Shown: one piece after another, positions 208-14,776 of the stretch | Position numbering within the stretch: position 1 is the first letter of the stretch | Layout: each line of letters begins with the position of its first letter | Source of the DNA: an uncultured Victivallales bacterium | GTDB taxonomy: Bacteria; Verrucomicrobiota; Kiritimatiellia; UBA8416 | DNA: 16,121 nt | Direction of reading: 5' to 3' | NCBI GenBank assembly: GCA_964598575.1 | Contig: CAZRCN010000019.1 | Location: 1-16,121, forward strand | Position numbers and translations under genes: made by a program | The notes under the pieces: generated by a model | Told to the model about the DNA's origin: nothing | The model's input: the letters and a program-made list of their open reading frames with translations, nothing else | Database searches by the model: none

Positions 208-280
208 ACATTGAAACGATTCGACATACATGCTTCAAGCCATTGATAATGAATGTATTACCTTTGTACAGTGCACTCCC

Positions 281-308
281 GTGGGCGTGTGGGCGTACGT
301 GGGTATAC
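281..308. repeat. Short tandem repeat: GTGGGCGT / GTGGGCGTAC / GTGGGTATAC (three units).
   Basis: Read directly at 281-288, 289-298 and 299-308. It lies in the non-coding leader upstream of the 494 CDS, which also contains the direct repeats GCACGTTGC (about 337 and 466) and TGCGGGGCAGA (about 380 and 447). Confidence 0.5.
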
Positions 309-493
309 TGCGGAGGTGGCTCCGGCAAATGGAGCTGCACGTTGCGGATATGCCGGTCTGGGGGAATTGGCAGCAACATTTGCGGGGCAGACTGATACGC
401 ATCCGCGGTTGTTTTCGGCTATCGTGCCGCATGGGAAAACTACCATGCGGGGCAGATGCAGCAGTTGCACGTTGCCGTGCAGGAAAGGAAGGT

Positions 494-1171
494 ATGACGT
501 TGGAAGTTGTCTCGGTTGCCACGAATGTTTTCATGGCGATGATCTGGGTAATCTATCTGCAGAAGTTTATGACGCAATACCGGCGGACGAATCGTCCGGT
601 CCTGATTATCCACCATGCGCAGGGCAATGATCCGTCCGCATTATGTCTTTTTGTGAACATGAGCAAGGAGCCGATACATGTCGTGGGCGTATTTGCGAAT
701 ATGCACGGTTCGAATGGCCATATAAGTCGGCATGTGACGGAGTATCACCGCATGAATCCATACGACCAGAACCTTGAGTCTCATCTGCGCCAGGGGCCGC
801 TCCAGCCGGGGGGGTACCTGGTGCTGGGATCCTTTGAAGATATCATACTGGGGCGGCAGTCTGATCCCGAGGATGATCAAGATGTCGCTACGATGCTTTC
901 AAGCCTACGCGAAATCCACAGCCTGGAAATATGCGTGGCTGCCATCCATGGGCCCAGCAAGCACTATATCGGTGCCCGCAGGCACTTTGCGGTGGAAAAT
1001 GAAGAGGGTGAAGTGGTGCTGCGTGCGCACAGTATCTATACGGAGCAGCTAGTCAACCGCTGGAAACGAAAACTTGTTCGGCAGTGGGCCGAAACGTTGC
1101 TGGAGCCACAACATCGCGGAAAAATGCAAACCCAGCATACCAGCCAGGGAGAAGATGCCGAATCAAACTGA
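494..1171 (+). CDS. Hypothetical protein, 225 aa. It has an N-terminal hydrophobic segment (VVSVATNVFMAMIWVIYL) and an acidic C-terminal tail. I do not recognise the family.
   Basis: The ATG at 494 is preceded by AGGAAAGGAAGG at 481-492. The in-frame extension upstream to 230 is rich in R, C and W, typical of a high-GC non-coding read-through, and has no RBS. Confidence 0.55.
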   Translation: MTLEVVSVATNVFMAMIWVIYLQKFMTQYRRTNRPVLIIHHAQGNDPSALCLFVNMSKEPIHVVGVFANMHGSNGHISRHVTEYHRMNPYDQNLESHLRQGPLQPGGYLVLGSFEDIILGRQSDPEDDQDVATMLSSLREIHSLEICVAAIHGPSKHYIGARRHFAVENEEGEVVLRAHSIYTEQLVNRWKRKLVRQWAETLLEPQHRGKMQTQHTSQGEDAESN

Positions 1172-1270: not shown

Positions 1271-1858
1271 TCATAGGAATTGCGAACCGATGAAAACATA
1301 GGTGGACAGGGTGAGCAGAAAGGCGAGGAGGGCGAGGAGTCCATCGCGGGCGGTCAGGGACAGCCCGAAGATGGTGAGGACGAGTCCGGCGCTGCTGGCG
1401 GAAAAGAGAATGAACTCCATGAGTGGCAGACTCAGTGCGATGATGATGCAGATGGCGGCAATCACATCAGCGCCGATACCCCGCACAAGAAAGGAAAATC
1501 GGGGTTTCAGCATGCGGTCGATGACCCGGGCTGGTTTACGAAGCCATCGCAGCGACCGGATCAGTTTTTTTCGCCGCACTGTGCGGTCCAATAGCCAACG
1601 CGGCAGCCAAAGGGCCTGCCGCCGAAACAAGATTTGAAGACTGATCAGCAGCGTGAATACGCCCATTGTCGTTGGAACAGTGGGAATGCCACTGAGCGGG
1701 GAAAATAATATGAGTCCCGGCAATAACAGCAGGGTGCCGAACGAACGCGTGCCGACAGCTTCCAGGATGGCTTCTAACGTGACATGTCGCCGAATACCCG
1801 TGGTTTCTGTTGCTATCCGCTCCAGTACTTGCTGCATGTTTTTGGGTTCGTCATTCAT
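1271..1858 (-). CDS. ExoD-family membrane protein (exopolysaccharide synthesis ExoD, PF06055-like), 195 aa.
   Basis: Multi-span hydrophobic protein with the ExoD-like N-terminal motif RSFGTLLLLPGLILFSPLSGIP and LQILFRRQALWLPRWLL. It is convergent with the upstream hypothetical gene. Confidence 0.75.
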   Translation of the reverse strand: MNDEPKNMQQVLERIATETTGIRRHVTLEAILEAVGTRSFGTLLLLPGLILFSPLSGIPTVPTTMGVFTLLISLQILFRRQALWLPRWLLDRTVRRKKLIRSLRWLRKPARVIDRMLKPRFSFLVRGIGADVIAAICIIIALSLPLMEFILFSASSAGLVLTIFGLSLTARDGLLALLAFLLTLSTYVFIGSQFL

Positions 1859-2016
1859 GATTGGAAGCTACTATAGCTGTTAATCTGGCTGTGAACAATT
1901 ATCGATGTAGGGTCTAAGAAAGATCGAACCCTTAAGTCAGTCTCTCCCCTATGGTGTACAGGGGGAGGGTGTGTTTATGGTGATCCACGCGTTTGCGGGT
2001 AGCAGTGCGAAGCGGG

Positions 2017-2073
2017 CATCACGGTGATGTGTGATGCCAGAATCCATAAACATGCCGGCACATCACCGGTCAT
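2017..2073. promoter_or_regulatory. Candidate operator: perfect palindrome CATCAC-G-GTGATG (2017-2029). A further GTGATG follows at 2031-2036 and a CATCACCGGTCAT at 2061-2073, 30-85 bp upstream of the EncFtn start.
   Basis: The palindrome was read directly. Its position in the divergent exoD/encFtn promoter region suggests regulator binding. I cannot assign it to a known box such as Fur, PerR or IdeR. Confidence 0.3.
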
Positions 2074-2102
2074 ACAGTCCGATACAAGAAGGAGAGTGGC
2101 AT

Positions 2103-2462
2103 ATGCCAAGCGCCTATCATGAAGACAACCTGTCCGAAGACGTCAAGGATACACACCGGGCTCTCGTCAGCCTGCAGGAAGAACTGGAGGCGGTGGATTG
2201 GTACAACCAGCGCGCCGATGTGACGACGGATGCGGAGTTGAAAGAGGTCTTGATTCATAATCGCAATGAGGAGATCGAGCATGCGGCCATGCTGCAGGAG
2301 TGGCTCCGTCGCAAGGTGCCCGCCTTTGACGAACAACTGCAAACATACCTCTTCGCGACACTCCCCATTACCGAGGTGGAAGAGGCGGCCGAGGCGGCTG
2401 AAGCCGAAGAGGGTGCGCCCGAAGCCGGAGATGGCTCGCTCGGCATAGGAACCAGTACATAA
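2103..2462 (+). CDS. Encapsulated ferritin-like protein (EncFtn / Flp), the cargo of a family-1 encapsulin. It has a ferritin-like four-helix core with an EEIEH-type metal-binding motif, an Ala/Glu-rich linker, and a C-terminal targeting peptide GSLGIGTST.
   Basis: The protein reads ...LQEELEAVDWYNQRADVTTDAELKEVLIHNRNEEIEHAAMLQEWL...AEAEEGAPEAGDGSLGIGTST. The ATG at 2103 is preceded by AAGGAGAG at 2088-2095. The ORF-track start at 2031 lacks an RBS. The encapsulin gene starts 23 nt downstream. Confidence 0.85.
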   Translation: MPSAYHEDNLSEDVKDTHRALVSLQEELEAVDWYNQRADVTTDAELKEVLIHNRNEEIEHAAMLQEWLRRKVPAFDEQLQTYLFATLPITEVEEAAEAAEAEEGAPEAGDGSLGIGTST

Positions 2463-2485
2463 CAGAGAAAAGAGGAGATACCGTC

Positions 2486-3292
2486 ATGACAGATATGCTA
2501 AGAAGAAACCTTGCCCCCATCACAGCGGAGGCATGGAAGGAAATCGATGAAGAAGCCACCCGTACGTTGCGGACGCATCTTACGGCCCGGAATATCCTGG
2601 GTGTCAATGGTCCACATGGATGGTCACTGGGTGCAATCAATCTAGGCACACTGGATTTGGGTAAGCAAGAGCTAGTGCCTGATGTGGGGTGGGGGATGCG
2701 CAATGTCCTTCCGCTAACGGAAATACGGGTTCCCTTTCTTCTCGATACCTTCGAGTTGGATGATATAACCCGCGGCAGTAAAACACCGGATCTGGATGCG
2801 GTGGACGAAGCCGCGCAGAAGGCGGCGCTTTTTGAAGAAACGGCTATCTATAAGGGCTTTGCGCCAGCCGGTATCCAGGGGATATTGACGGCCAGCGCGC
2901 AAGAGGCTGTATCGCTGTCCGGAAAACCCGAGAATATGATCAAGGCGATCGAGCGAGGCGTGCATGCCCTGCAGCGCAGTGGCATTGCAGGACCGTATGA
3001 ACTGGTGCTCGGCGACGAGCCGTACCAGAAGCTGTATGCAGGAGAGGAAAGCTGCTATCCATTGTATCGCCAAGCAACCGAGATTCTGGGAGGAGGCATC
3101 CATTGGAGCCGGGCCTTGGAGGGCGGTGTGATTGTGAGTGCGCGTGGCGGGGACTTTGAGTTTAGTTGCGGGCAGGATCTCTCGATCGGGTACGCCATGG
3201 TGCAGGAGCAGCAGGTACATCTCTACCTGACCGAATCTTTCACCTTCCGGGTACTCGAACCGGAGGCGGCTGTACCGCTGACGGCGCAGTAG
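2486..3292 (+). CDS. Family-1 encapsulin shell protein (Linocin M18-like, HK97 fold), 268 aa.
   Basis: It is collinear with Thermotoga maritima encapsulin throughout, including the RGGDF, GQDLSIGY and TESFTF blocks at the matching C-terminal positions. The RBS AAGAGGAGA lies 6 nt before the ATG at 2486. Confidence 0.9.
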   Translation: MTDMLRRNLAPITAEAWKEIDEEATRTLRTHLTARNILGVNGPHGWSLGAINLGTLDLGKQELVPDVGWGMRNVLPLTEIRVPFLLDTFELDDITRGSKTPDLDAVDEAAQKAALFEETAIYKGFAPAGIQGILTASAQEAVSLSGKPENMIKAIERGVHALQRSGIAGPYELVLGDEPYQKLYAGEESCYPLYRQATEILGGGIHWSRALEGGVIVSARGGDFEFSCGQDLSIGYAMVQEQQVHLYLTESFTFRVLEPEAAVPLTAQ

Positions 3293-3369
3293 ATCGGAGG
3301 GCGGCTCACCGGGGTTCTGGAGTCGGTCCGTTCCCGGGCCGTAGCAGATGGCTGGCGGGGCAGCGCGTA

Positions 3370-3439
3370 GGATGCGGGACGGAGGGCGTCCTGGTACCAG
3401 ATTGGGATGCGGGACGGAGGGCGTCCGGGTGCAGATTCG
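3370..3439. repeat. Two tandem copies of a 35-bp unit, GGATGCGGGACGGAGGGCGTCC-N-GGT-N-CAGATT, at 3370-3403 and 3405-3439. Each contains a GGACG-GAGGG-CGTCC hairpin (5-bp stem, 5-nt loop). A third CGGAGGGCG motif lies at 3295-3303.
   Basis: Read directly in the 167-bp spacer between the encapsulin stop (3292) and the radical SAM start (3460). The unit length is not a multiple of 3, so it is not a peptide repeat. Confidence 0.5.
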
Positions 3440-3459
3440 AGGTTGGTGGGAGAGATGCG

Positions 3460-4464
3460 ATGAAAGAGGCGATGTTCTGGGAGAAGGAATCGGCGGATAC
3501 GGTTCGCTGCACGTTGTGCTATCAGCGCTGCCGGATCAAACCGGGGGCGCGGGGCATCTGCGGTGTACGTGAAAACCGCGCCGGCGAGCTGGTTACACTT
3601 GTGTATGGGCGTCCCATTTCCATCGCGGTAGATCCCATCGAAAAAAAGCCGTTGTACCATGTCCTACCCGGCAGCACCGCGCTTTCCCTTGGTACCGTGG
3701 GTTGCAATTTTCGGTGTCTGAACTGTCAGAATTGTTCTATTTCGCAGCTTCCGCCTGCTGGGGAGATAGGCGGGCATGAGGGGGTAACGCCTGAAACCAT
3801 TGTCGCTACCGCCAAGGCGAAGGGTTGCGAGAGTATTGCCTACACCTATACCGAGCCGACCATCTTCTTTGAATATGCCTACGATATTGCCAGGCTTGCC
3901 AAGCGCGAAGGCATCAGGAACCTGTTCGTTACAAATGGATATATCATGCCTGAAGCCCTTGAGAAGATGGCGCCCTATCTGGATGCTGCCAATATCGATC
4001 TCAAATTCTTCCGTGATGACCTGTACCGTGAGGTGGCTGGAGCCCGGCTGCAACCGATTCTTGATACGATCCGGCTCTATCACAAGCTGGGGATTTGGAT
4101 CGAAGTCACCACGTTGGTGATTCCCGGTTACAACGATGATGACGAACAGCTCGGCACCATGGCGTCATTCATATCTGACACGGATCCGAGTATACCGTGG
4201 CATCTATCCGCCTTTTTTCCGACCTACAAGCTCACCGATGCCGCCCCGACCCCGCTTGCAACACTGGAAAAGGCCCGAGCCATTGGCCACGCTGCCGGAC
4301 TTCAGCATGTCTACCTCGGAAATGTCCGGGAAGCTGCACATACTATCTGTCCCTCTTGTGGCACGGTGCTGGTAGAACGCCATGGCACGCATGTGCAGAT
4401 GCAGGGTCTGGCAGATAAGCGCTGTTCATCCTGCAAAACCCCAATCGGAGGCGTCTGGACATGA
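3460..4464 (+). CDS. Radical SAM enzyme, PflA-like / AmmeMemoRadiSam-system-type activase, 334 aa. It has an N-terminal Cys cluster (CTLCYQRC), the canonical SAM-cluster motif GCNFRCLNC (C-x3-C-x2-C), and a C-terminal CPSC...CSSC zinc-ribbon-like pair.
   Basis: Motifs were read from the translation, including EKKPLYHVLPGS and the C-x3-C-x2-C cluster. The start is the ATG at 3460 after GGTGGGAGAG. The upstream in-frame stretch 3166-3459 overlaps the encapsulin gene, crosses the tandem repeats and is Gly/Arg-rich, so I treat it as non-coding. Confidence 0.7.
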   Translation: MKEAMFWEKESADTVRCTLCYQRCRIKPGARGICGVRENRAGELVTLVYGRPISIAVDPIEKKPLYHVLPGSTALSLGTVGCNFRCLNCQNCSISQLPPAGEIGGHEGVTPETIVATAKAKGCESIAYTYTEPTIFFEYAYDIARLAKREGIRNLFVTNGYIMPEALEKMAPYLDAANIDLKFFRDDLYREVAGARLQPILDTIRLYHKLGIWIEVTTLVIPGYNDDDEQLGTMASFISDTDPSIPWHLSAFFPTYKLTDAAPTPLATLEKARAIGHAAGLQHVYLGNVREAAHTICPSCGTVLVERHGTHVQMQGLADKRCSSCKTPIGGVWT

Positions 4465-5105
4465 CCTTCAAGGATAGATCTGATGCAGGGCATCAAGTAG
4501 GATTGGCGTTGAAAGCCTATGGTGACAAGGGTCCGCTGGTTCTAGGCATACCACGGGGCGGGGTCGAGGTGGCCTATCAGGCAGCAAGGCTCTGCAACGC
4601 CGACTTTTCCATCCTGATTGTGAGGAAGCTGCCGTTTCCCGATAATCCCGAGGCTGGGTTTGGTGCGCTGGCAGAAGACGGCAGCCTGTATCTTATTCCC
4701 GATGCGGAACGTGCGATACCCCGCTCGGTTGTCGAGAACATTGTCCAGGCACAACGTACGGAAGTCAGGCGGCGCGTCGAGGTGCTGCGTGAGGGGCGGA
4801 AGCTTCCGTCGCTAGCTGGGCGCAACGTGGTGCTGGTCGATGACGGCATTGCAATGGGGTCGACGACGCAAGCGGCGGTCTTGTGTTGCCGCAATCTGCA
4901 TGCGGCCCATATAACGGTGGCAGCACCAGTAGCGTCCCCTCGAGCTGTGGATGCCCTGTATCCCGTTGCGGACCGGGTCATTGCGCTCCATGCCCCCGAC
5001 GCCTTCAGGGCCGTGGCGGCCTTTTACCAAAACTGGTATGACGTTCCCGATGACGAGGTTATTCGTATATTGAGAATGGCAGAGCAAGAAGCACTGCTGC
5101 AATAA
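4461..5105 (+). CDS. Phosphoribosyltransferase-family protein (COG1926-type predicted PRTase), 214 aa. Its PRPP-binding loop is VVLVDDGIAMGSTTQAA.
   Basis: The type-I PRTase signature (hydrophobic-DDG-x-A-x-GST) is present, and the overall layout matches the stand-alone predicted-PRTase family. The ATG at 4461 overlaps the radical SAM TGA at 4462-4464 (ATGA). Confidence 0.75.
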   Translation: MTFKDRSDAGHQVGLALKAYGDKGPLVLGIPRGGVEVAYQAARLCNADFSILIVRKLPFPDNPEAGFGALAEDGSLYLIPDAERAIPRSVVENIVQAQRTEVRRRVEVLREGRKLPSLAGRNVVLVDDGIAMGSTTQAAVLCCRNLHAAHITVAAPVASPRAVDALYPVADRVIALHAPDAFRAVAAFYQNWYDVPDDEVIRILRMAEQEALLQ

Positions 5106-5123
5106 TGAGAAAGGAAGTATAGC

Positions 5124-5690
5124 ATGCAAGTACCACTGGAAATCGCCTTTCGGGATGTATCCCGAACGCCCGAGATCGATCGGCTCATCGAGAAGAAAGT
5201 TGCGCGACTTGAGCAAGTCTGCAACAATCTCATCAGTTGCCGTATTGCGATAGAACAGCCGCAGAAGCATCAGCAGCAGGGCAACCCGTACCGCGTCCGC
5301 ATCGAGATGCATGTCCCACCCAAACATGAGCTCATTGCAAAAAGCAAGCCGGGAGACAATCCGATGCATGAGGGGCTGCATGCTGTGATTACGGACACAT
5401 TCGACACCGCCGAACGCAGACTGCGCAAGCAGATGGGCAAGCTCCAGGGCGAAACAAAGCGTCATCCCGATCAAGAGCCGATGGCCTTCATCGGGAAGAT
5501 CTTCAAGGACGAGGGCTACGGATTTATCTGGGGTATGGATGGCACGGAATATTACTTCCACCGCAATAGTGTGCTGCACGATGCCTTCGATCGGCTCGAA
5601 AAGGGCACGGGAGTCAATTTCGTTCCCGAGAGCGGCGACGAAGGACCCCAGGCTAGCAGCGTTGAAATGATCGACAAGCCATCCCTATAG
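5124..5690 (+). CDS. Fusion of an HPF/RaiA (YfiA-fold ribosome-associated inhibitor) domain with a cold-shock domain, 188 aa.
   Basis: The N-terminal roughly 105 aa match the HPF/RaiA fold (LIEKKVARLEQVCNNLISCRIAIE...YRVRIEMHVPPKHELIAKSK...AVITDTFDTAERRLRK). The C-terminal roughly 65 aa are a cold-shock domain with the FIGKIFKDEGYGFIWGMDGTEYYFHRNSV RNP-like motifs. The RBS AAAGGAAG precedes the ATG at 5124, which is 18 nt after the PRTase stop. Confidence 0.75.
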   Translation: MQVPLEIAFRDVSRTPEIDRLIEKKVARLEQVCNNLISCRIAIEQPQKHQQQGNPYRVRIEMHVPPKHELIAKSKPGDNPMHEGLHAVITDTFDTAERRLRKQMGKLQGETKRHPDQEPMAFIGKIFKDEGYGFIWGMDGTEYYFHRNSVLHDAFDRLEKGTGVNFVPESGDEGPQASSVEMIDKPSL

Positions 5691-5774
5691 TTGATCCAGG
5701 AAATGGGCGCAAGCGGGAGATACGATTACCGCTTGGATAGCAGTTGCCCGTCTGCCATCTGGATGGAAGCCGGC

Positions 5775-6464
5775 TTAGGCTCTTACGCCAAATACACATC
5801 CGACACCGTAGGTGAGCCCCATAGCCAGTGCACCCCAAAACGTCACCCTGATAGCACCGATCATAAGGGGTGCGCCCCCCGTTCGTGCAGCCGCTCCACC
5901 AAGAAACGCCAAAAACACGAGCGATAAGGTTGCAACGGCAGGGATCAGATAGTTGCCTGGCATAGCCCATGCGATAACAAGCGGCAGGGCCGCACCAACG
6001 GTAAAGGAGGCCGCCGACGAGCATGTTGCTAGCACCGGCTGAGCCCTGACAGTTCCCGATATGCCGATGTCATCCCGGGCGTGCGCATCCAGGGGGTCTT
6101 TGGCCATGAGCTGTTCTGCAACTTGTCTGGCCAGAACAGGTTCAACACCCCGATGTTGGTATATCGTTGCAAGCTCATCCTTTTCGGACTCGATGTCGTT
6201 CTCTAATGATTTCTTTTCGAGGTCTAGATCTGCTTTTTCGGTGTCCGATTTAGAACTGACGGACACATACTCGCCAGCCGCCATAGACATGGCCCCAGCA
6301 ACTAATCCCGCAAGACCCGCAAGAAGAATGTTCTCTTGTGCTGCACCTCCAGCCGCAACGCCAATAATAAGACTGGCCGTAGACACGATTCCGTCATTCG
6401 CGCCTAAGACGACTGCACGCAACCACCCCCCGCGTTTCGATCTGTGTCTTGCATGATGGCTCAT
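5775..6464 (-). CDS. VIT1/CCC1-family iron/manganese transporter (vacuolar iron transporter-like).
   Basis: The conserved motif WLRAVVLGANDGIVSTASLIIGVAA is present, with two hydrophobic blocks separated by a charged central loop. The ATG at 6464 is the first Met. The ORF track extends to a TTG at 6503, which would overlap the DUF2267 gene. No strong RBS is visible for either start. Confidence 0.75.
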   Translation of the reverse strand: MSHHARHRSKRGGWLRAVVLGANDGIVSTASLIIGVAAGGAAQENILLAGLAGLVAGAMSMAAGEYVSVSSKSDTEKADLDLEKKSLENDIESEKDELATIYQHRGVEPVLARQVAEQLMAKDPLDAHARDDIGISGTVRAQPVLATCSSAASFTVGAALPLVIAWAMPGNYLIPAVATLSLVFLAFLGGAAARTGGAPLMIGAIRVTFWGALAMGLTYGVGCVFGVRA

Positions 6465-6486
6465 GTGCCTGCACGGGGATATGGGG

Positions 6487-6852
6487 TTAGAAGAGGGAGG
6501 CAAAGTCGTTGGGTAGTTGAGACCAGATGTGCTGGAATTCGCCTGTGCTTACGGCTTCCGACAGGACCGAGAGCACGATCTTGATGTGCTGTTCGGCCGT
6601 GGGCGTATTGACACCTTCGCGCTCGGCTACCATCTGCACGAAGGTATCGCGATCGAAGGGCTGATTGGCCTCTGCCGGAATCAGGTAGTCCTTGACGCCA
6701 TCGGGTAACTGCGCCGCCAGATCGGAGGATTCGCCTCCATAGAGTCGTTTGCCAAGCACTTCCAGGGTTGCCCGGGTTGCTTTTTCGGCTGCAGGTTCAT
6801 CGGCCAGCTCGGCGCGGTTTCTTACTTGCGAGATGAATGTATTGCGATCCAT
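6487..6852 (-). CDS. DUF2267 domain protein, 121 aa.
   Basis: It matches the DUF2267 family along its whole length (FISQVRNRAELADEPAAEKATRATLEVLGKRL...DLAAQLP...REGVNTP...HIKIVLSVLSEAVSTGEF). A strong RBS GGAAGGAGAAC precedes the ATG on the minus strand. Confidence 0.85.
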   Translation of the reverse strand: MDRNTFISQVRNRAELADEPAAEKATRATLEVLGKRLYGGESSDLAAQLPDGVKDYLIPAEANQPFDRDTFVQMVAEREGVNTPTAEQHIKIVLSVLSEAVSTGEFQHIWSQLPNDFASLF

Positions 6853-6883
6853 GTCGTTCTCCTTCCGGGGTTCGTGTTTTCAC

Positions 6884-7010
6884 GTTGATTGCATACTGTC
6901 ATGTTTGGTAAGGAGATACTATCGGTGCAACCATGAGACAAGGGGTTGATATTCCTGAAATGCAATCAGGGATATCGAAGCATTGCATCAGGGGTTCTCT
7001 GATTCAACTA
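6884..7010. promoter_or_regulatory. Divergent promoter region with three TTGCAT / ATGCAA half-sites (6889-6894, 6960-6965, 6983-6988). The last two form ATGCAAT-N15-ATTGCAT. Direct repeats TGCA(A)TCAGGG and AGGGGTT... are also present.
   Basis: Read directly. It lies between the divergent DUF2267-VIT and tolC-RND operons, and no regulator gene is adjacent. Confidence 0.3.
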
Positions 7011-7104
7011 AGTACGGATGCAGGATAGACTTGCGAGCAGTATGGCAAAAACCCCTGATAGGCGGGCAGAGACTGCGGGATTGTATCTTCACGAAGGAGG
7101 TGTT

Positions 7105-13800: not shown

Positions 13801-14776
13801 TCAACATAATGGTGGTTCAGGGCATGTCTCGCCATAGCGCAACTCCGTCAGATCCTGCGCTTGCGGCAATTGTCTGGCTGCTTCACGCAAGGCGCTTCGC
13901 AGTCCTTCTTCCAGCGTAGGATGATAGAAGGGCATGCTCATCAAGTTCCACGCCTAGTTTCTCTAGTCGCAGTCCGTCCAGATTAGGGCGCACACCCATG
14001 GCGACGAGTACCCGGTCAACCGTAACATGTGTCTCCCCGGCTTTTACTATGAGTGCCCTGTTATTCGCCTCAACCTCGGCTTTCTGTCCCACATGTATGG
14101 GGAATTCCTTGTTGATACGAGAAACCAGAGTGGCATTTACCTCAGGATCACTGAGTCCACCAAGGGTATCCAGTGCATCGAATCCGGTAACAGCTACGCC
14201 CAACCGGGAGAGGGCTTGACTCAACTCCAGTCCGATGGCTCCCAGCCCGATCACCGCCATTCGATGTGGCAGATCTGTCTGTTCGAACAGGGATTCGCTC
14301 GTCAAGACCCGCTTGCCGAAATCACGCCAGGCGGATGGAACGATCGGTTGCGCCCCAGTCGCAATGATAAACCGGTCCGCATGGATGATCTGATCATTCA
14401 CCTGTATGTGATGGGGGGATACAAATGTTGCATGCCCTTCAATCAGGTGATCCCGGGCTCGTTCACGTGTGGCCTCAATCATCCCATTCGTGAAAGCGTC
14501 GCGACTGGCACGAACCTGTTTCAATACGGCGGGAATATGGACAGCAGGTCTGGACGTCTCATCCGCGGTTTGATTGTACTCATGAGCCGCCCGGTCGATA
14601 TCATGCGCAATCCGGATGAAAGCCTTGGACGGCATACAGCCAGTCCGGGCACAGGTTGTTCCCAACGGCCCCTGATCTATCAGCAGGTAGTCATCGGTGA
14701 TGTTTTGCACCTGCCGCAGGGCCGCAATCCCGGCACTCCCGGCACCAATAATAACAATGTTCGTTTTTTTGTTCAT
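13801..14776 (-). pseudogene. Class-I pyridine nucleotide-disulfide oxidoreductase (lipoamide dehydrogenase / mercuric reductase-like) disrupted by an internal deletion and frameshift. The N-terminal FAD and NAD domains are intact (297 aa, 14776 down to 13883). The C-terminal HPTLEE-containing tail is in another frame (about 13935 down to 13801).
   Basis: The N-terminal redox-active motif GTTCARTGCMPSK and the GxGxxG NAD fold are present. The ORF stops right after GVELDEHA. Shifting one frame at about 13930-13940 gives ...PFYHPTLEEGLRSALREAARQLPQ..., the conserved C-terminal His-Pro-Thr...Glu dimer-interface segment. Roughly 140 aa of central and interface domain are missing between the two parts. 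Confidence 0.6.

What the first reader, a model, noticed from the sequence alone, without database searches (positions are those of the whole stretch)
3460..5105. Radical SAM enzyme with extra Cys clusters, start-stop coupled to a predicted PRTase
Besides the canonical CNFRCLNC cluster, the rSAM has an N-terminal C-x2-C-x3-C (CTLCYQRC) and a C-terminal CPSC-x20-CSSC pair. These suggest one or two auxiliary metal sites. The 4-nt ATGA overlap with the PRTase implies stoichiometric co-expression. A PRTase partner suggests the radical chemistry acts on or generates a ribose-5-phosphate-linked base or cofactor. I am not aware of a characterised pathway pairing these two families.
Basis: partly seen in the sequence, partly recalled or inferred. 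Interest (0 to 1): 0.5.

Follow-up and report, generated by a model that had tools for sequence, protein, structure and literature searches.

The report
AmmeMemoRadiSam radical-SAM gene beside phosphoribosyltransferase
The radical SAM gene is an ordinary member of a large, already catalogued but biochemically uncharacterised family; its extra cysteines are present in every homologue checked, and its overlap with a phosphoribosyltransferase gene is a local arrangement seen in only a few related lineages, so it is a weak clue to function.

Summary
Window 3460-4464 encodes a 334-aa radical SAM (rSAM) protein. Its stop overlaps by ATGA the start of a 214-aa type I phosphoribosyltransferase (PRTase, 4461-5105).

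The rSAM is a clear member of NCBIfam TIGR04337, the AmmeMemoRadiSam system rSAM (352 bits, cutoff 220). All 11 motif cysteines are invariant in 90/90 homologues from many phyla, so they are family hallmarks. These are N-terminal CX2CX3CX9C, the CX3CX2C SAM cluster, and C-terminal CX2C-x21-CX2C.

The PRTase is a TT1426/COG1926-type protein of unknown substrate (PDB 1wd5, E=9e-38).

The pairing is not a family feature:
- None of 80 species-representative rSAM loci has this PRTase within 10 kb.
- The closest relative (77% identity) is flanked by MEMO.
- Another relative (70%) has AMMECR1 nearby.
- One Verrucomicrobiota MAG carries both genes on different contigs.

The pairing does recur in two other rSAM lineages. 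A divergent rSAM paralogue also sits beside a PRTase homologue elsewhere.

The gene context here is EncFtn-encapsulin, S30AE-CSD hibernation factor, DUF2267, VIT1 and USP. This looks like a low-oxygen/stress cluster. Co-regulation is the most likely reading. A shared pathway is not excluded.

The parts
2103..2462 (+). EncFtn, the encapsulin-associated ferritin-like cargo. It ends in ...GSLGIGTST, which resembles a targeting peptide. The mechanical ORF starts at GTG 2031; the gene called on the identical contig corresponds to 2103.
   Evidence: TIGR04535 139 bits (cutoff 125), PF22277 E=1.4e-37; gene call on L001
2486..3292 (+). Family 1 encapsulin shell protein
   Evidence: NF041155 280 bits (cutoff 100); PF04454 E=3e-77
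3370..3430 (+). Two copies of a 26-nt direct repeat (GGATGCGGGACGGAGGGCGTCC...), 35 nt apart, in the 167-nt spacer upstream of the rSAM. Possibly a regulator site. Function unknown.
   Evidence: 0 of 200 shuffles give 2 matches. No Rfam hit. RNA fold z=0.10.
3460..4464 (+). AmmeMemoRadiSam-system radical SAM enzyme (TIGR04337), 334 aa. Cysteine sets: N-terminal C17/C20/C24/C34, SAM cluster C82/C86/C89, C-terminal C297/C300/C322/C325.
   Evidence: TIGR04337 352.2 bits (cutoff 220). PF04055 E=8e-24. Cys invariance. AF2 model pLDDT 91.5, best PDB fold PFL-AE 3c8f with TM 0.81 on the target.
4461..5105 (+). TT1426/COG1926-type type I phosphoribosyltransferase, 214 aa. PRPP loop V123-LVDDGIAMGST is intact. 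Its start overlaps the rSAM stop (ATGA).
   Evidence: PF00156 37.9 bits (cutoff 26.3). PDB 1wd5 E=8.7e-38 over residues 1-204. Invariant D127 D128 G129 G133 T135 in 10 homologues.
5124..5690 (+). S30AE (HPF/RaiA-like) domain fused to a cold-shock domain, 188 aa. It lies 18 nt after the PRTase and is probably the third gene of the operon.
   Evidence: PF02482 E=3.4e-11 and PF00313 E=2e-8. The same trio is present in L004-L006.
5775..6503 (-). VIT1/CCC1-type iron/manganese transporter, convergent with the operon. The called start on the identical contig corresponds to 6464.
   Evidence: PF01988 E=1.6e-63
6487..6852 (-). DUF2267 protein, also retained next to the module in L004-L006
   Evidence: PF10025 E=1.1e-35; 84% identical in L004
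12899..13699 (+). Tandem universal stress protein (context)
   Evidence: PF00582 E=4.5e-20, 2 stretches

Best explanation
**What it is.** Window 3460-4464 encodes a standard AmmeMemoRadiSam-system radical SAM enzyme (TIGR04337). It has a PFL-activase-like core that binds the SAM-cleaving [4Fe-4S] cluster on CX3CX2C. It also has two family-wide Cys4 modules: an N-terminal beta-rich CX2CX3CX9C and a C-terminal ribbon-like CX2C-x21-CX2C. These presumably bind extra Fe-S or Zn (inferred).

**The operon.** In this lineage, probably Verrucomicrobiota-like, the rSAM heads a three-gene operon: rSAM, then PRTase, then an S30AE-CSD hibernation-factor-like protein. The operon lies just downstream of an EncFtn-encapsulin operon. 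The surrounding genes (VIT1, DUF2267, USP, efflux pump) give the region a stress / metal-homeostasis character.

**What the overlap means.** The ATGA overlap gives co-transcription and probably translational coupling with a TT1426/COG1926-type PRTase of unknown substrate. Most likely this reflects shared regulation of oxygen-sensitive, growth-arrest functions, comparable to the mycobacterial DosR regulon or the Burkholderia lxa locus. It is less likely to be an obligate two-enzyme pathway.

**The rSAM's real partners.** By family membership these are AMMECR1 and MEMO, presumably encoded elsewhere in the genome (inferred; not testable from 16 kb).
For: **Family membership.** TIGR04337 scores 352 bits against a cutoff of 220. 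All 11 Cys are invariant in 90/90 homologues.

**Canonical partners appear in the nearest relatives.**
- P0002 (77% identity) has TIGR04336/MEMO as its convergent neighbour.
- P0025 (70%) has TIGR04335/AMMECR1 3 kb upstream.

**The PRTase is not a conserved neighbour.**
- 0 of 80 GTDB loci have it, by tblastn and by an iterated HMM. Of these loci, 67 have at least 1 kb of downstream flank.
- It is absent next to P0003, P0005, P0007, P0008 and P0009.
- Linked and unlinked rSAMs are interleaved in the NJ tree.
- One Verrucomicrobiota MAG (GCA_964475205.1) has both genes on different contigs.

**The PRTase family also occurs where no such rSAM is nearby.** Examples are Deinococcus, Paracoccus, Ralstonia and haloarchaea.

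**Stress character of the context.**
- Window: USP, S30AE-CSD, DUF2267, VIT1 and EncFtn-encapsulin.
- L113: BON, HSP20 and CBS beside the rSAM.
- L004: BON, desulfoferrodoxin.
- Azospirillum plasmid: the PRTase lies among Hsp20, a BCAM0308-family protein, HPF/RaiA, PRPP synthetase and PpsA.
- L097: a class II-like RNR lies beside the PRTases.

**Literature parallels.**
- The DosR regulon includes Rv0571c (PRTase), Rv0570 (RNR), Rv0079 (ribosome-associated factor), the RtcB homologue Rv2631, and USP-containing blocks (PMC5309233).
- The lxa locus includes USPs, Hsp20, a class II RNR and a cation ATPase (PMC3721108).
Against: **The pairing does recur.**
- The same ATGA overlap, plus the S30AE-CSD gene, is present in a lineage with only 67-69% identity and different outer flanks (L004-L006).
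- A 58-59% lineage has rSAM, then a CDP-alcohol phosphatidyltransferase, then PRTase on one strand (L109/L110).
- A separate lineage pairs a divergent TIGR04337-like rSAM head-to-head with a 51-54% PRTase homologue, with variable flanks (L093/L094/L097).

**Seen from the PRTase side the association is not negligible.** About 4 of roughly 17 sampled lineages with at least 50% identity have such an rSAM nearby.

**Gaps.** There is no expression data. No regulator was identified. The 'stress island' label rests on gene content and analogy only.
Confidence: 0.6

Rival explanations
1. The rSAM and PRTase form a real two-step pathway. The PRTase would attach ribose-5-phosphate from PRPP to a base or heterocycle that the rSAM makes or modifies, or the rSAM would modify the resulting nucleotide. 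This is formally like TubB/QueE plus TubE in 7-deazapurine nucleoside biosynthesis. The S30AE-CSD protein might be related to the target, for example RNA or the ribosome.
For: - The ATGA overlap is conserved in L004.
- Both genes lie on the same strand in L109/L110.
- An independent head-to-head pairing exists between a TIGR04337-like paralogue and a PRTase homologue in L093/L094/L097, with differing flanks.
- The PRTase catalytic-type motifs are intact.
- There is a precedent for an rSAM + PRTase pathway (PMC6112128).
- AMMECR1 was predicted to act in an RNA base modification together with the rSAM (PMC2034487).
- rSAM neighbours elsewhere include archease-RtcB, TruA and methyltransferases.
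Against: - 0 of 80 GTDB rSAM loci, and 7 of 10 sampled lineages in the immediate clade, have the PRTase adjacent.
- Both genes are unlinked in one MAG.
- The PRTase family is widespread in organisms and contexts without this rSAM.
- Linked rSAMs do not form a separate subfamily.
- The co-directional cases may all descend from one ancestral arrangement in related genomes.
Confidence: 0.22
2. The rSAM is a glycyl-radical-enzyme activase (PFL-AE-like) for an enzyme encoded elsewhere.
For: The best solved-structure relative is PFL-AE (3c8f; phmmer E=8e-10; Foldseek TM 0.81 on the target). JGI annotates many homologues as 'pyruvate formate lyase activating enzyme'.
Against: - All activase models score far below their cutoffs: PFLA 55 bits against 232, and PFLE_PFLC 49 against 174. 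TIGR04337 passes at 352 against 220.
- No glycyl radical enzyme is present in the window or in the related loci surveyed.
- The N- and C-terminal Cys4 modules are absent from the 245-aa PFL-AE.
Confidence: 0.03
3. The rSAM and/or the PRTase are functionally tied to the upstream encapsulin, as cargo or as cargo-maturation factors.
For: EncFtn-encapsulin lies directly upstream in both the window and L004-L006.
Against: - Neither protein ends in a targeting-peptide-like sequence. The rSAM ends ...PIGGVWT and the PRTase ends ...EQEALLQ, whereas EncFtn ends ...GSLGIGTST.
- No encapsulin lies near the rSAM in the other 80+ loci, or near the PRTase in its other loci.
- A 167-nt spacer separates the two units.
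Confidence: 0.03

Closest known systems
AmmeMemoRadiSam system radical SAM enzyme (NCBIfam TIGR04337; partners AMMECR1/TIGR04335 and MEMO/TIGR04336)
   Same: - Full-length HMM match above cutoff.
- All family-invariant Cys motifs are present.
- The nearest relatives sit beside MEMO or AMMECR1.
   Different: - No AMMECR1 or MEMO lies within this 16-kb window.
- Here the gene heads an operon with a PRTase and an S30AE-CSD protein.
- The family itself has no demonstrated reaction.
Pyruvate formate-lyase activating enzyme (PDB 3c8f / 3cb8)
   Same: It is the closest solved fold (TM 0.81 on the target). It shares the CX3CX2C cluster and the partial TIM-barrel SAM core.
   Different: - About 20% identity.
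- PFL-AE lacks the ~60-residue N-terminal Cys4 domain and the C-terminal Cys4 ribbon.
- Activase HMMs are far below cutoff.
- No glycyl radical enzyme is nearby.
TT1426 of Thermus thermophilus (PDB 1wd5), a COG1926-type predicted phosphoribosyltransferase
   Same: Aligns end to end (E=8.7e-38). It shares the type I PRTase PRPP loop and the other conserved motifs.
   Different: TT1426 is itself deposited as a hypothetical protein, so the match gives fold and family but not substrate.
Tubercidin / toyocamycin 7-deazapurine pathway: radical SAM TubB (QueE-type) plus the CDG-PRPP phosphoribosyltransferase TubE
   Same: It is a characterised case in which a radical SAM enzyme and a type I PRTase act in one pathway. 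This is a model for the rival explanation.
   Different: - Different rSAM family (QueE-like, not TIGR04337).
- Different PRTase family (purine PRTase-like).
- It needs GTP cyclohydrolase I and CPH4 synthase genes, which are absent here.
Low-oxygen / dormancy gene sets: M. tuberculosis DosR regulon and B. cenocepacia lxa locus
   Same: The gene content overlaps: USPs, a ribosome-associated S30AE-type factor, a putative PRTase (Rv0571c), a class II RNR, small heat-shock and BON proteins, and a cation ATPase. These appear in the window or in related loci.
   Different: - No DosR-type regulator was identified here.
- No expression data exist.
- Those regulons are not reported to contain a TIGR04337 rSAM or an encapsulin.
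- That Rv0571c belongs to the same PRTase family rests on my memory, not on a test run here.

Membership tests
TIGR04337 AmmeMemoRadiSam radical SAM enzyme | Full-length match to the family HMM above the curated cutoff | tested here: met
   352.2 bits against cutoff 220; residues 5-333 match model positions 2-333 of 349
TIGR04337 AmmeMemoRadiSam radical SAM enzyme | Radical SAM CX3CX2C motif plus the family's N-terminal CX2CX3CX9C and C-terminal CX2C-x21-CX2C cysteines | tested here: met
   All 11 Cys are present and invariant in 90/90 homologues
TIGR04337 AmmeMemoRadiSam radical SAM enzyme | Co-occurrence in the genome with AMMECR1 (TIGR04335) and MEMO (TIGR04336) | not testable with these tools
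   Neither is in the 16-kb window, and the whole genome is not available. In relatives, MEMO is adjacent in L119 (77% identity) and L039, and AMMECR1 is near in L090 and L010.
Glycyl-radical enzyme activase (PFL-AE, TIGR02493/TIGR02494) | HMM score above cutoff and a glycyl radical enzyme partner | tested here: not met
   55.2 bits against 231.75, and 48.7 against 174.35. No GRE gene in the window or in related loci.
Type I phosphoribosyltransferase (PF00156), TT1426/COG1926 subgroup | Pfam match above gathering score; PRPP-binding loop (hydrophobic-DD-G-x-x-x-G-[ST]-T); end-to-end similarity to TT1426 | tested here: met
   37.9 bits against 26.3. VVLVDDGIAMGSTT is conserved. 1wd5 E=8.7e-38, residues 1-204.
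PRTases of known specificity (Upp, PRPP synthetase and others in NCBIfam) | Score above the equivalog cutoff | tested here: not met
   Best is upp at 22.2 bits against cutoff 208
Family 1 encapsulin cargo | C-terminal targeting peptide of the ...SLGIG... type | tested here: not met
   By inspection, the rSAM and PRTase C-termini lack it, while EncFtn ends ...GSLGIGTST
HPF/RaiA ribosome hibernation factor (for the third operon gene) | S30AE domain; NCBIfam TIGR00741 above cutoff | tested here: inconclusive
   Pfam PF02482 passes at 44.2 bits against 23.7. TIGR00741 is below cutoff at 26 against 40.9. The C-terminus is a cold-shock domain rather than the long-HPF dimerisation domain.

The most novel reading that the evidence does not exclude
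In a subset of lineages the AmmeMemoRadiSam-type rSAM, or a divergent paralogue, works together with a COG1926 PRTase, possibly on a nucleobase, a nucleotide, or an RNA- or ribosome-linked substrate under anoxic growth arrest. If so, the operon rSAM-PRTase-S30AE/CSD would offer the first tractable biochemical handle on the unknown chemistry of the AMMECR1/MEMO/rSAM system, and on the orphan TT1426 PRTase family.
Probability: 0.15. Interest if true: 0.6.

Novelty: new member of a known kind. Interest (0 to 1): 0.27.

Why it matters
As it stands this is a correct gene call for two catalogued but uncharacterised families, in a lineage-specific operon.

Both families are long-standing orphans:
- AMMECR1 and MEMO1, the usual partners of this rSAM, have human homologues. 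From my own memory of the literature, not checked here, those homologues have been linked to human disease.
- The TT1426-type PRTase has had a crystal structure for years (PDB 1wd5) but is still deposited as a hypothetical protein.

If the sporadic rSAM-PRTase linkage reflected shared chemistry, it would suggest PRPP or a nucleobase as a substrate class to test. The survey here indicates that this is a minority possibility. The more useful result is negative. The extra cysteines and the PRTase neighbour should not be read as marking a new rSAM subclass.

Tried and rejected
1. **Search for a PRTase-specific rSAM subfamily.** The NJ tree of 50 homologues interleaves PRTase-linked and unlinked members. 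Rejected.
2. **AMMECR1/MEMO as the usual neighbours in bacteria.** Only 1 + 1 of 80 GTDB loci have them within 10 kb. 'Normally flanked by AMMECR1/MEMO' is therefore also untrue for this clade. The commonest neighbour is a class I methyltransferase.
3. **Riboswitch or structured RNA in the 167-nt leader.** No Rfam hit, and folding is no better than shuffles.
4. **Promoter/terminator scan of 1800-7100.** Counts are at or below shuffle expectation, so it is uninformative.
5. **Identifying the source organism.**
   - Exact cluster look-up gave no names.
   - The taxon is inferred only from 77% identity of the class I aldolase, and 60% of the PRTase, to a Verrucomicrobiota MAG.
6. **Measuring Cys-Cys distances in the AF2 model.** Model coordinates are not exposed to the script sandbox. 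Whether each Cys4 set forms one site is not verified.
7. **Burroughs et al. 2019 (PMC6664185) on Memo-AMMECR1 systems.** The paper is not held. What I recall of it is unverified memory: that it links the system to nucleotide-base and isoprenoid modification.
8. **Literature searches.** Searches for COG1926 and TT1426 returned nothing that assigns a function to this PRTase family.
Full report
**1. The observation**

The region was read and translated.
- Window 3460-4464 (+) encodes 334 aa. It carries CTLCYQRC (C17, C20, C24), CNFRCLNC (C82, C86, C89), and CPSC...CSSC (C297, C300, C322, C325).
- Window 4461-5105 (+) encodes 214 aa with a type I PRTase PRPP loop (VVLVDDGIAMGSTT).
- The two genes overlap by ATGA.

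Two details differ from the finding.
- The C-terminal spacer is 21 residues, not 20.
- A fourth N-terminal cysteine, C34, belongs to the motif.

The mechanical ORF begins at TTG 3166. Homologues are 331-340 aa and begin at the equivalent of ATG 3460. The PRTase start is fixed by residue-1 alignment with PDB 1wd5.

**2. What the two proteins are**

The rSAM:
- It matches NCBIfam TIGR04337, 'AmmeMemoRadiSam system radical SAM enzyme', at 352 bits (cutoff 220).
- All glycyl-radical activase, MoaA, viperin and other models fall far below their cutoffs.
- The nearest solved sequences and folds are PFL-activating enzyme (phmmer E=8e-10; Foldseek TM 0.81 on the target at about 20% identity). The comparison used an AF2 model with mean pLDDT 91.5.
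- No member of TIGR04337 itself turned up among solved structures.

The PRTase:
- It passes PF00156.
- It aligns end to end with TT1426 of Thermus thermophilus (1wd5, E=8.7e-38), which was deposited as a hypothetical protein.
- No NCBIfam model of known specificity comes near its cutoff.
- The PRPP loop and several other residues are invariant across ten homologues down to 34% identity.

**3. The extra cysteines are family hallmarks**

- In 50 database homologues (56-77% identity, bacteria and archaea), C17, C20, C24, C34, C82, C86, C89, C297, C300, C322 and C325 are all invariant.
- The same holds in 90 sequences that include 80 species-representative genomes from many phyla. The CxxC-x21-CxxC spacing is kept in 87 of 90.
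- The AF2 model places the N-terminal cysteines in a beta-rich ~60-residue domain. The C-terminal pairs flank a beta hairpin. This is consistent with two extra metal sites.
- The inference of auxiliary sites is reasonable, but it says nothing specific about this gene.

**4. Is the PRTase a conserved partner? The rSAM side**

The GTDB species-representative scan returned 80 loci at 49-59% identity. Of these, 67 have at least 1 kb of downstream flank and 58 have at least 3 kb.
- None has a TT1426-type PRTase within the fetched ±10 kb. This was tested by tblastn and by an iterated HMM over all ORFs.
- Immediate neighbours are heterogeneous. Class I methyltransferases account for 10, HhH-GPD for 4, and archease (with RtcB) for 3. 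AMMECR1 and Memo are not among the top families.
- MEMO and AMMECR1 each appear once (L039, L010).

Contexts in the immediate clade (tree):

| Relative | Identity to window rSAM | Neighbourhood |
|---|---|---|
| P0002 | 77% (closest) | convergent MEMO/TIGR04336 neighbour, no PRTase |
| P0003 | 73% | solitary |
| P0025 | 70% | AMMECR1/TIGR04335 3 kb upstream |
| P0005 | 69% | no PRTase |
| P0004 | 69% | EncFtn-Enc-rSAM-PRTase-S30AE/CSD-DUF2267 with the same ATGA overlap and different outer flanks |
| P0007 | 66% | no PRTase |
| P0008 | 64% | no PRTase |
| P0009 | 64% | no PRTase |
| P0026 | 59% | DHH-rSAM-CDP-alcohol phosphatidyltransferase-PRTase |
| P0074 | 59% | Verrucomicrobiota MAGs GCA_964475205.1 and GCA_048617635.1: rSAM beside BON/HSP20/CBS/aldolase; the MAGs' PRTase (P0126, 60% identical to the window PRTase) is on another contig behind a Cu-ATPase |

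Linked and unlinked rSAMs are interleaved in the tree, so there is no PRTase-specific rSAM subfamily.

**5. The PRTase side**

- Fifteen analysable metagenome loci with PRTase homologues (39-55% identity) have very diverse neighbours.
- None has a true TIGR04337 member.
- Three loci (L093, L094, L097) carry a divergent TIGR04337-like rSAM head-to-head with the PRTase.
  - Their rSAMs are closely similar to one another on inspection, so they count as one lineage.
  - These rSAMs score 65-79 bits on TIGR04337 where full length (L094, L097; the L093 copy is cut at the contig end).
  - The zinc-ribbon-like CxxC pairs are moved to the N-terminus.
  - Flanks differ between the three loci.
- L097 continues with a methyltransferase, a class II-like ribonucleotide reductase and a second PRTase paralogue.
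- On plasmids of cultured organisms the PRTase family occurs widely without any such rSAM:
  - with an erythromycin-esterase-family gene (Deinococcus deserti);
  - with HdeD (Ralstonia);
  - with OsmC and, further downstream, USP (Haladaptatus);
  - in Azospirillum, among Hsp20, a BCAM0308-family protein, NAPRTase, PRPP synthetase, PpsA and HPF/RaiA.

**6. Reading of the locus**

The window reads as follows:
- ExoD
- EncFtn and family 1 encapsulin
- a 167-nt spacer with a 26-nt tandem direct repeat
- rSAM, PRTase, S30AE-CSD
- convergent VIT1 and DUF2267
- a TolC/MFP/RND efflux operon
- a tandem USP
- a degraded pyridine-nucleotide disulfide oxidoreductase
- a class I fructose-bisphosphate aldolase

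Points bearing on the interpretation:
- The aldolase is 77% identical to the one near the rSAM in the Verrucomicrobiota MAG. The genomes are therefore probably related, and the same gene set is being reshuffled among them.
- The gene content parallels low-oxygen or dormancy sets.
  - The DosR regulon contains the putative PRTase Rv0571c, the RNR Rv0570, the ribosome-associated Rv0079 and the RtcB homologue Rv2631 (PMC5309233).
  - The B. cenocepacia lxa locus contains six USPs, an alpha-crystallin, 'phospholipid-binding' proteins, a class II RNR and a cation ATPase (PMC3721108).
- An oxygen-labile rSAM fits such a regulon.

I therefore consider co-regulation, with translational coupling as an operon-level consequence, the best explanation (confidence about 0.6). 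ATGA overlaps are commonplace from general knowledge, and the window's own OEP/MFP junction has one.

**7. Why a functional link is not dismissed**

- The overlap is retained at 67-69% identity with changed flanks.
- A third lineage keeps the two genes one gene apart.
- A different rSAM paralogue pairs with the PRTase in another lineage.
- rSAM + PRTase pathways exist in principle, as with TubB and TubE (PMC6112128).
- AMMECR1 was predicted to catalyse an RNA base modification together with this rSAM and the Memo-type dioxygenase (PMC2034487).
- rSAM neighbours such as archease-RtcB, TruA and methyltransferases, and S30AE-CSD in L056 and L076, lean toward RNA or ribosome biology.

I give this rival about 0.2.

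**8. Verdict**

- The finding is accurate as an observation.
- Its emphasis on the cysteines and on the PRTase as distinguishing features is not borne out.
- The gene is a new member of a known, uncharacterised family in a lineage-restricted operon.
- Interest is modest.

Noticed in passing
window 3370-3395 and 3405-3430: A 26-nt direct repeat (GGATGCGGGACGGAGGGCGTCC..) occurs twice, 35 nt apart, in the spacer between the encapsulin and the rSAM. Each copy contains a small GGACG/CGTCC palindrome. It occurs nowhere else in the window and is absent from the 64-nt spacer of L004. It may be a regulator binding site.
   Followed up: partly
window 13804-14776 (-): The pyridine-nucleotide disulfide oxidoreductase gene matches its L109 homologue at residues 1-289 and 425-473, in different frames. 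This indicates an internal deletion of about 135 codons plus a frameshift, so it is probably a pseudogene or an assembly error.
   Followed up: partly
window 5124-5690; L056 15214-15780; L076 9245-9775: The unusual S30AE (HPF-like) + cold-shock-domain fusion also lies within 5 kb of TIGR04337 rSAMs in an Omnitrophota MAG and a Desulfobacterales MAG. In the Omnitrophota MAG it is followed by a baeRF release-factor-like gene. With the window and L004, that makes four lineages.
   Followed up: partly
L093 1-921, L094 397-1494, L097 5661-6794 (all minus strand): A divergent TIGR04337-like rSAM subfamily. It has an N-terminal CKKCG...CxxC ribbon, then CRLCQNxCRI...GYCGVR and CTFNCLFC. It is transcribed divergently from a 51-54% homologue of the window PRTase. 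L097 continues with a methyltransferase, a class II-like RNR with an ATP-cone, and a second PRTase.
   Followed up: partly
L007-L086 (80 GTDB rSAM loci): The commonest immediate neighbour of TIGR04337 rSAMs is a class I SAM methyltransferase (10 loci; CMAS-like in L056). Next come HhH-GPD (4) and archease with RtcB (3-5); TruA appears in about 3. AMMECR1 and MEMO are adjacent in only one locus each.
   Followed up: partly
L109 7141-7731, L110, L111 7168-7746, L112: A small CDP-alcohol phosphatidyltransferase sits directly upstream of the PRTase in two lineages. In L109/L110 it lies between the rSAM and the PRTase.
   Followed up: no
L125 (Azospirillum brasilense plasmid NZ_CP059451, 375522-386043): A PRTase homologue is embedded among Hsp20, a BCAM0308-family protein, nicotinate PRTase, PRPP synthetase, PEP synthase and HPF/RaiA. 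This gene set resembles the Burkholderia low-oxygen-activated (lxa) locus.
   Followed up: partly
window 230-1171 (+): A 313-aa ORF with no Pfam or NCBIfam match. On the identical contig it is called as 225 aa, corresponding to window 494-1171.
   Followed up: no
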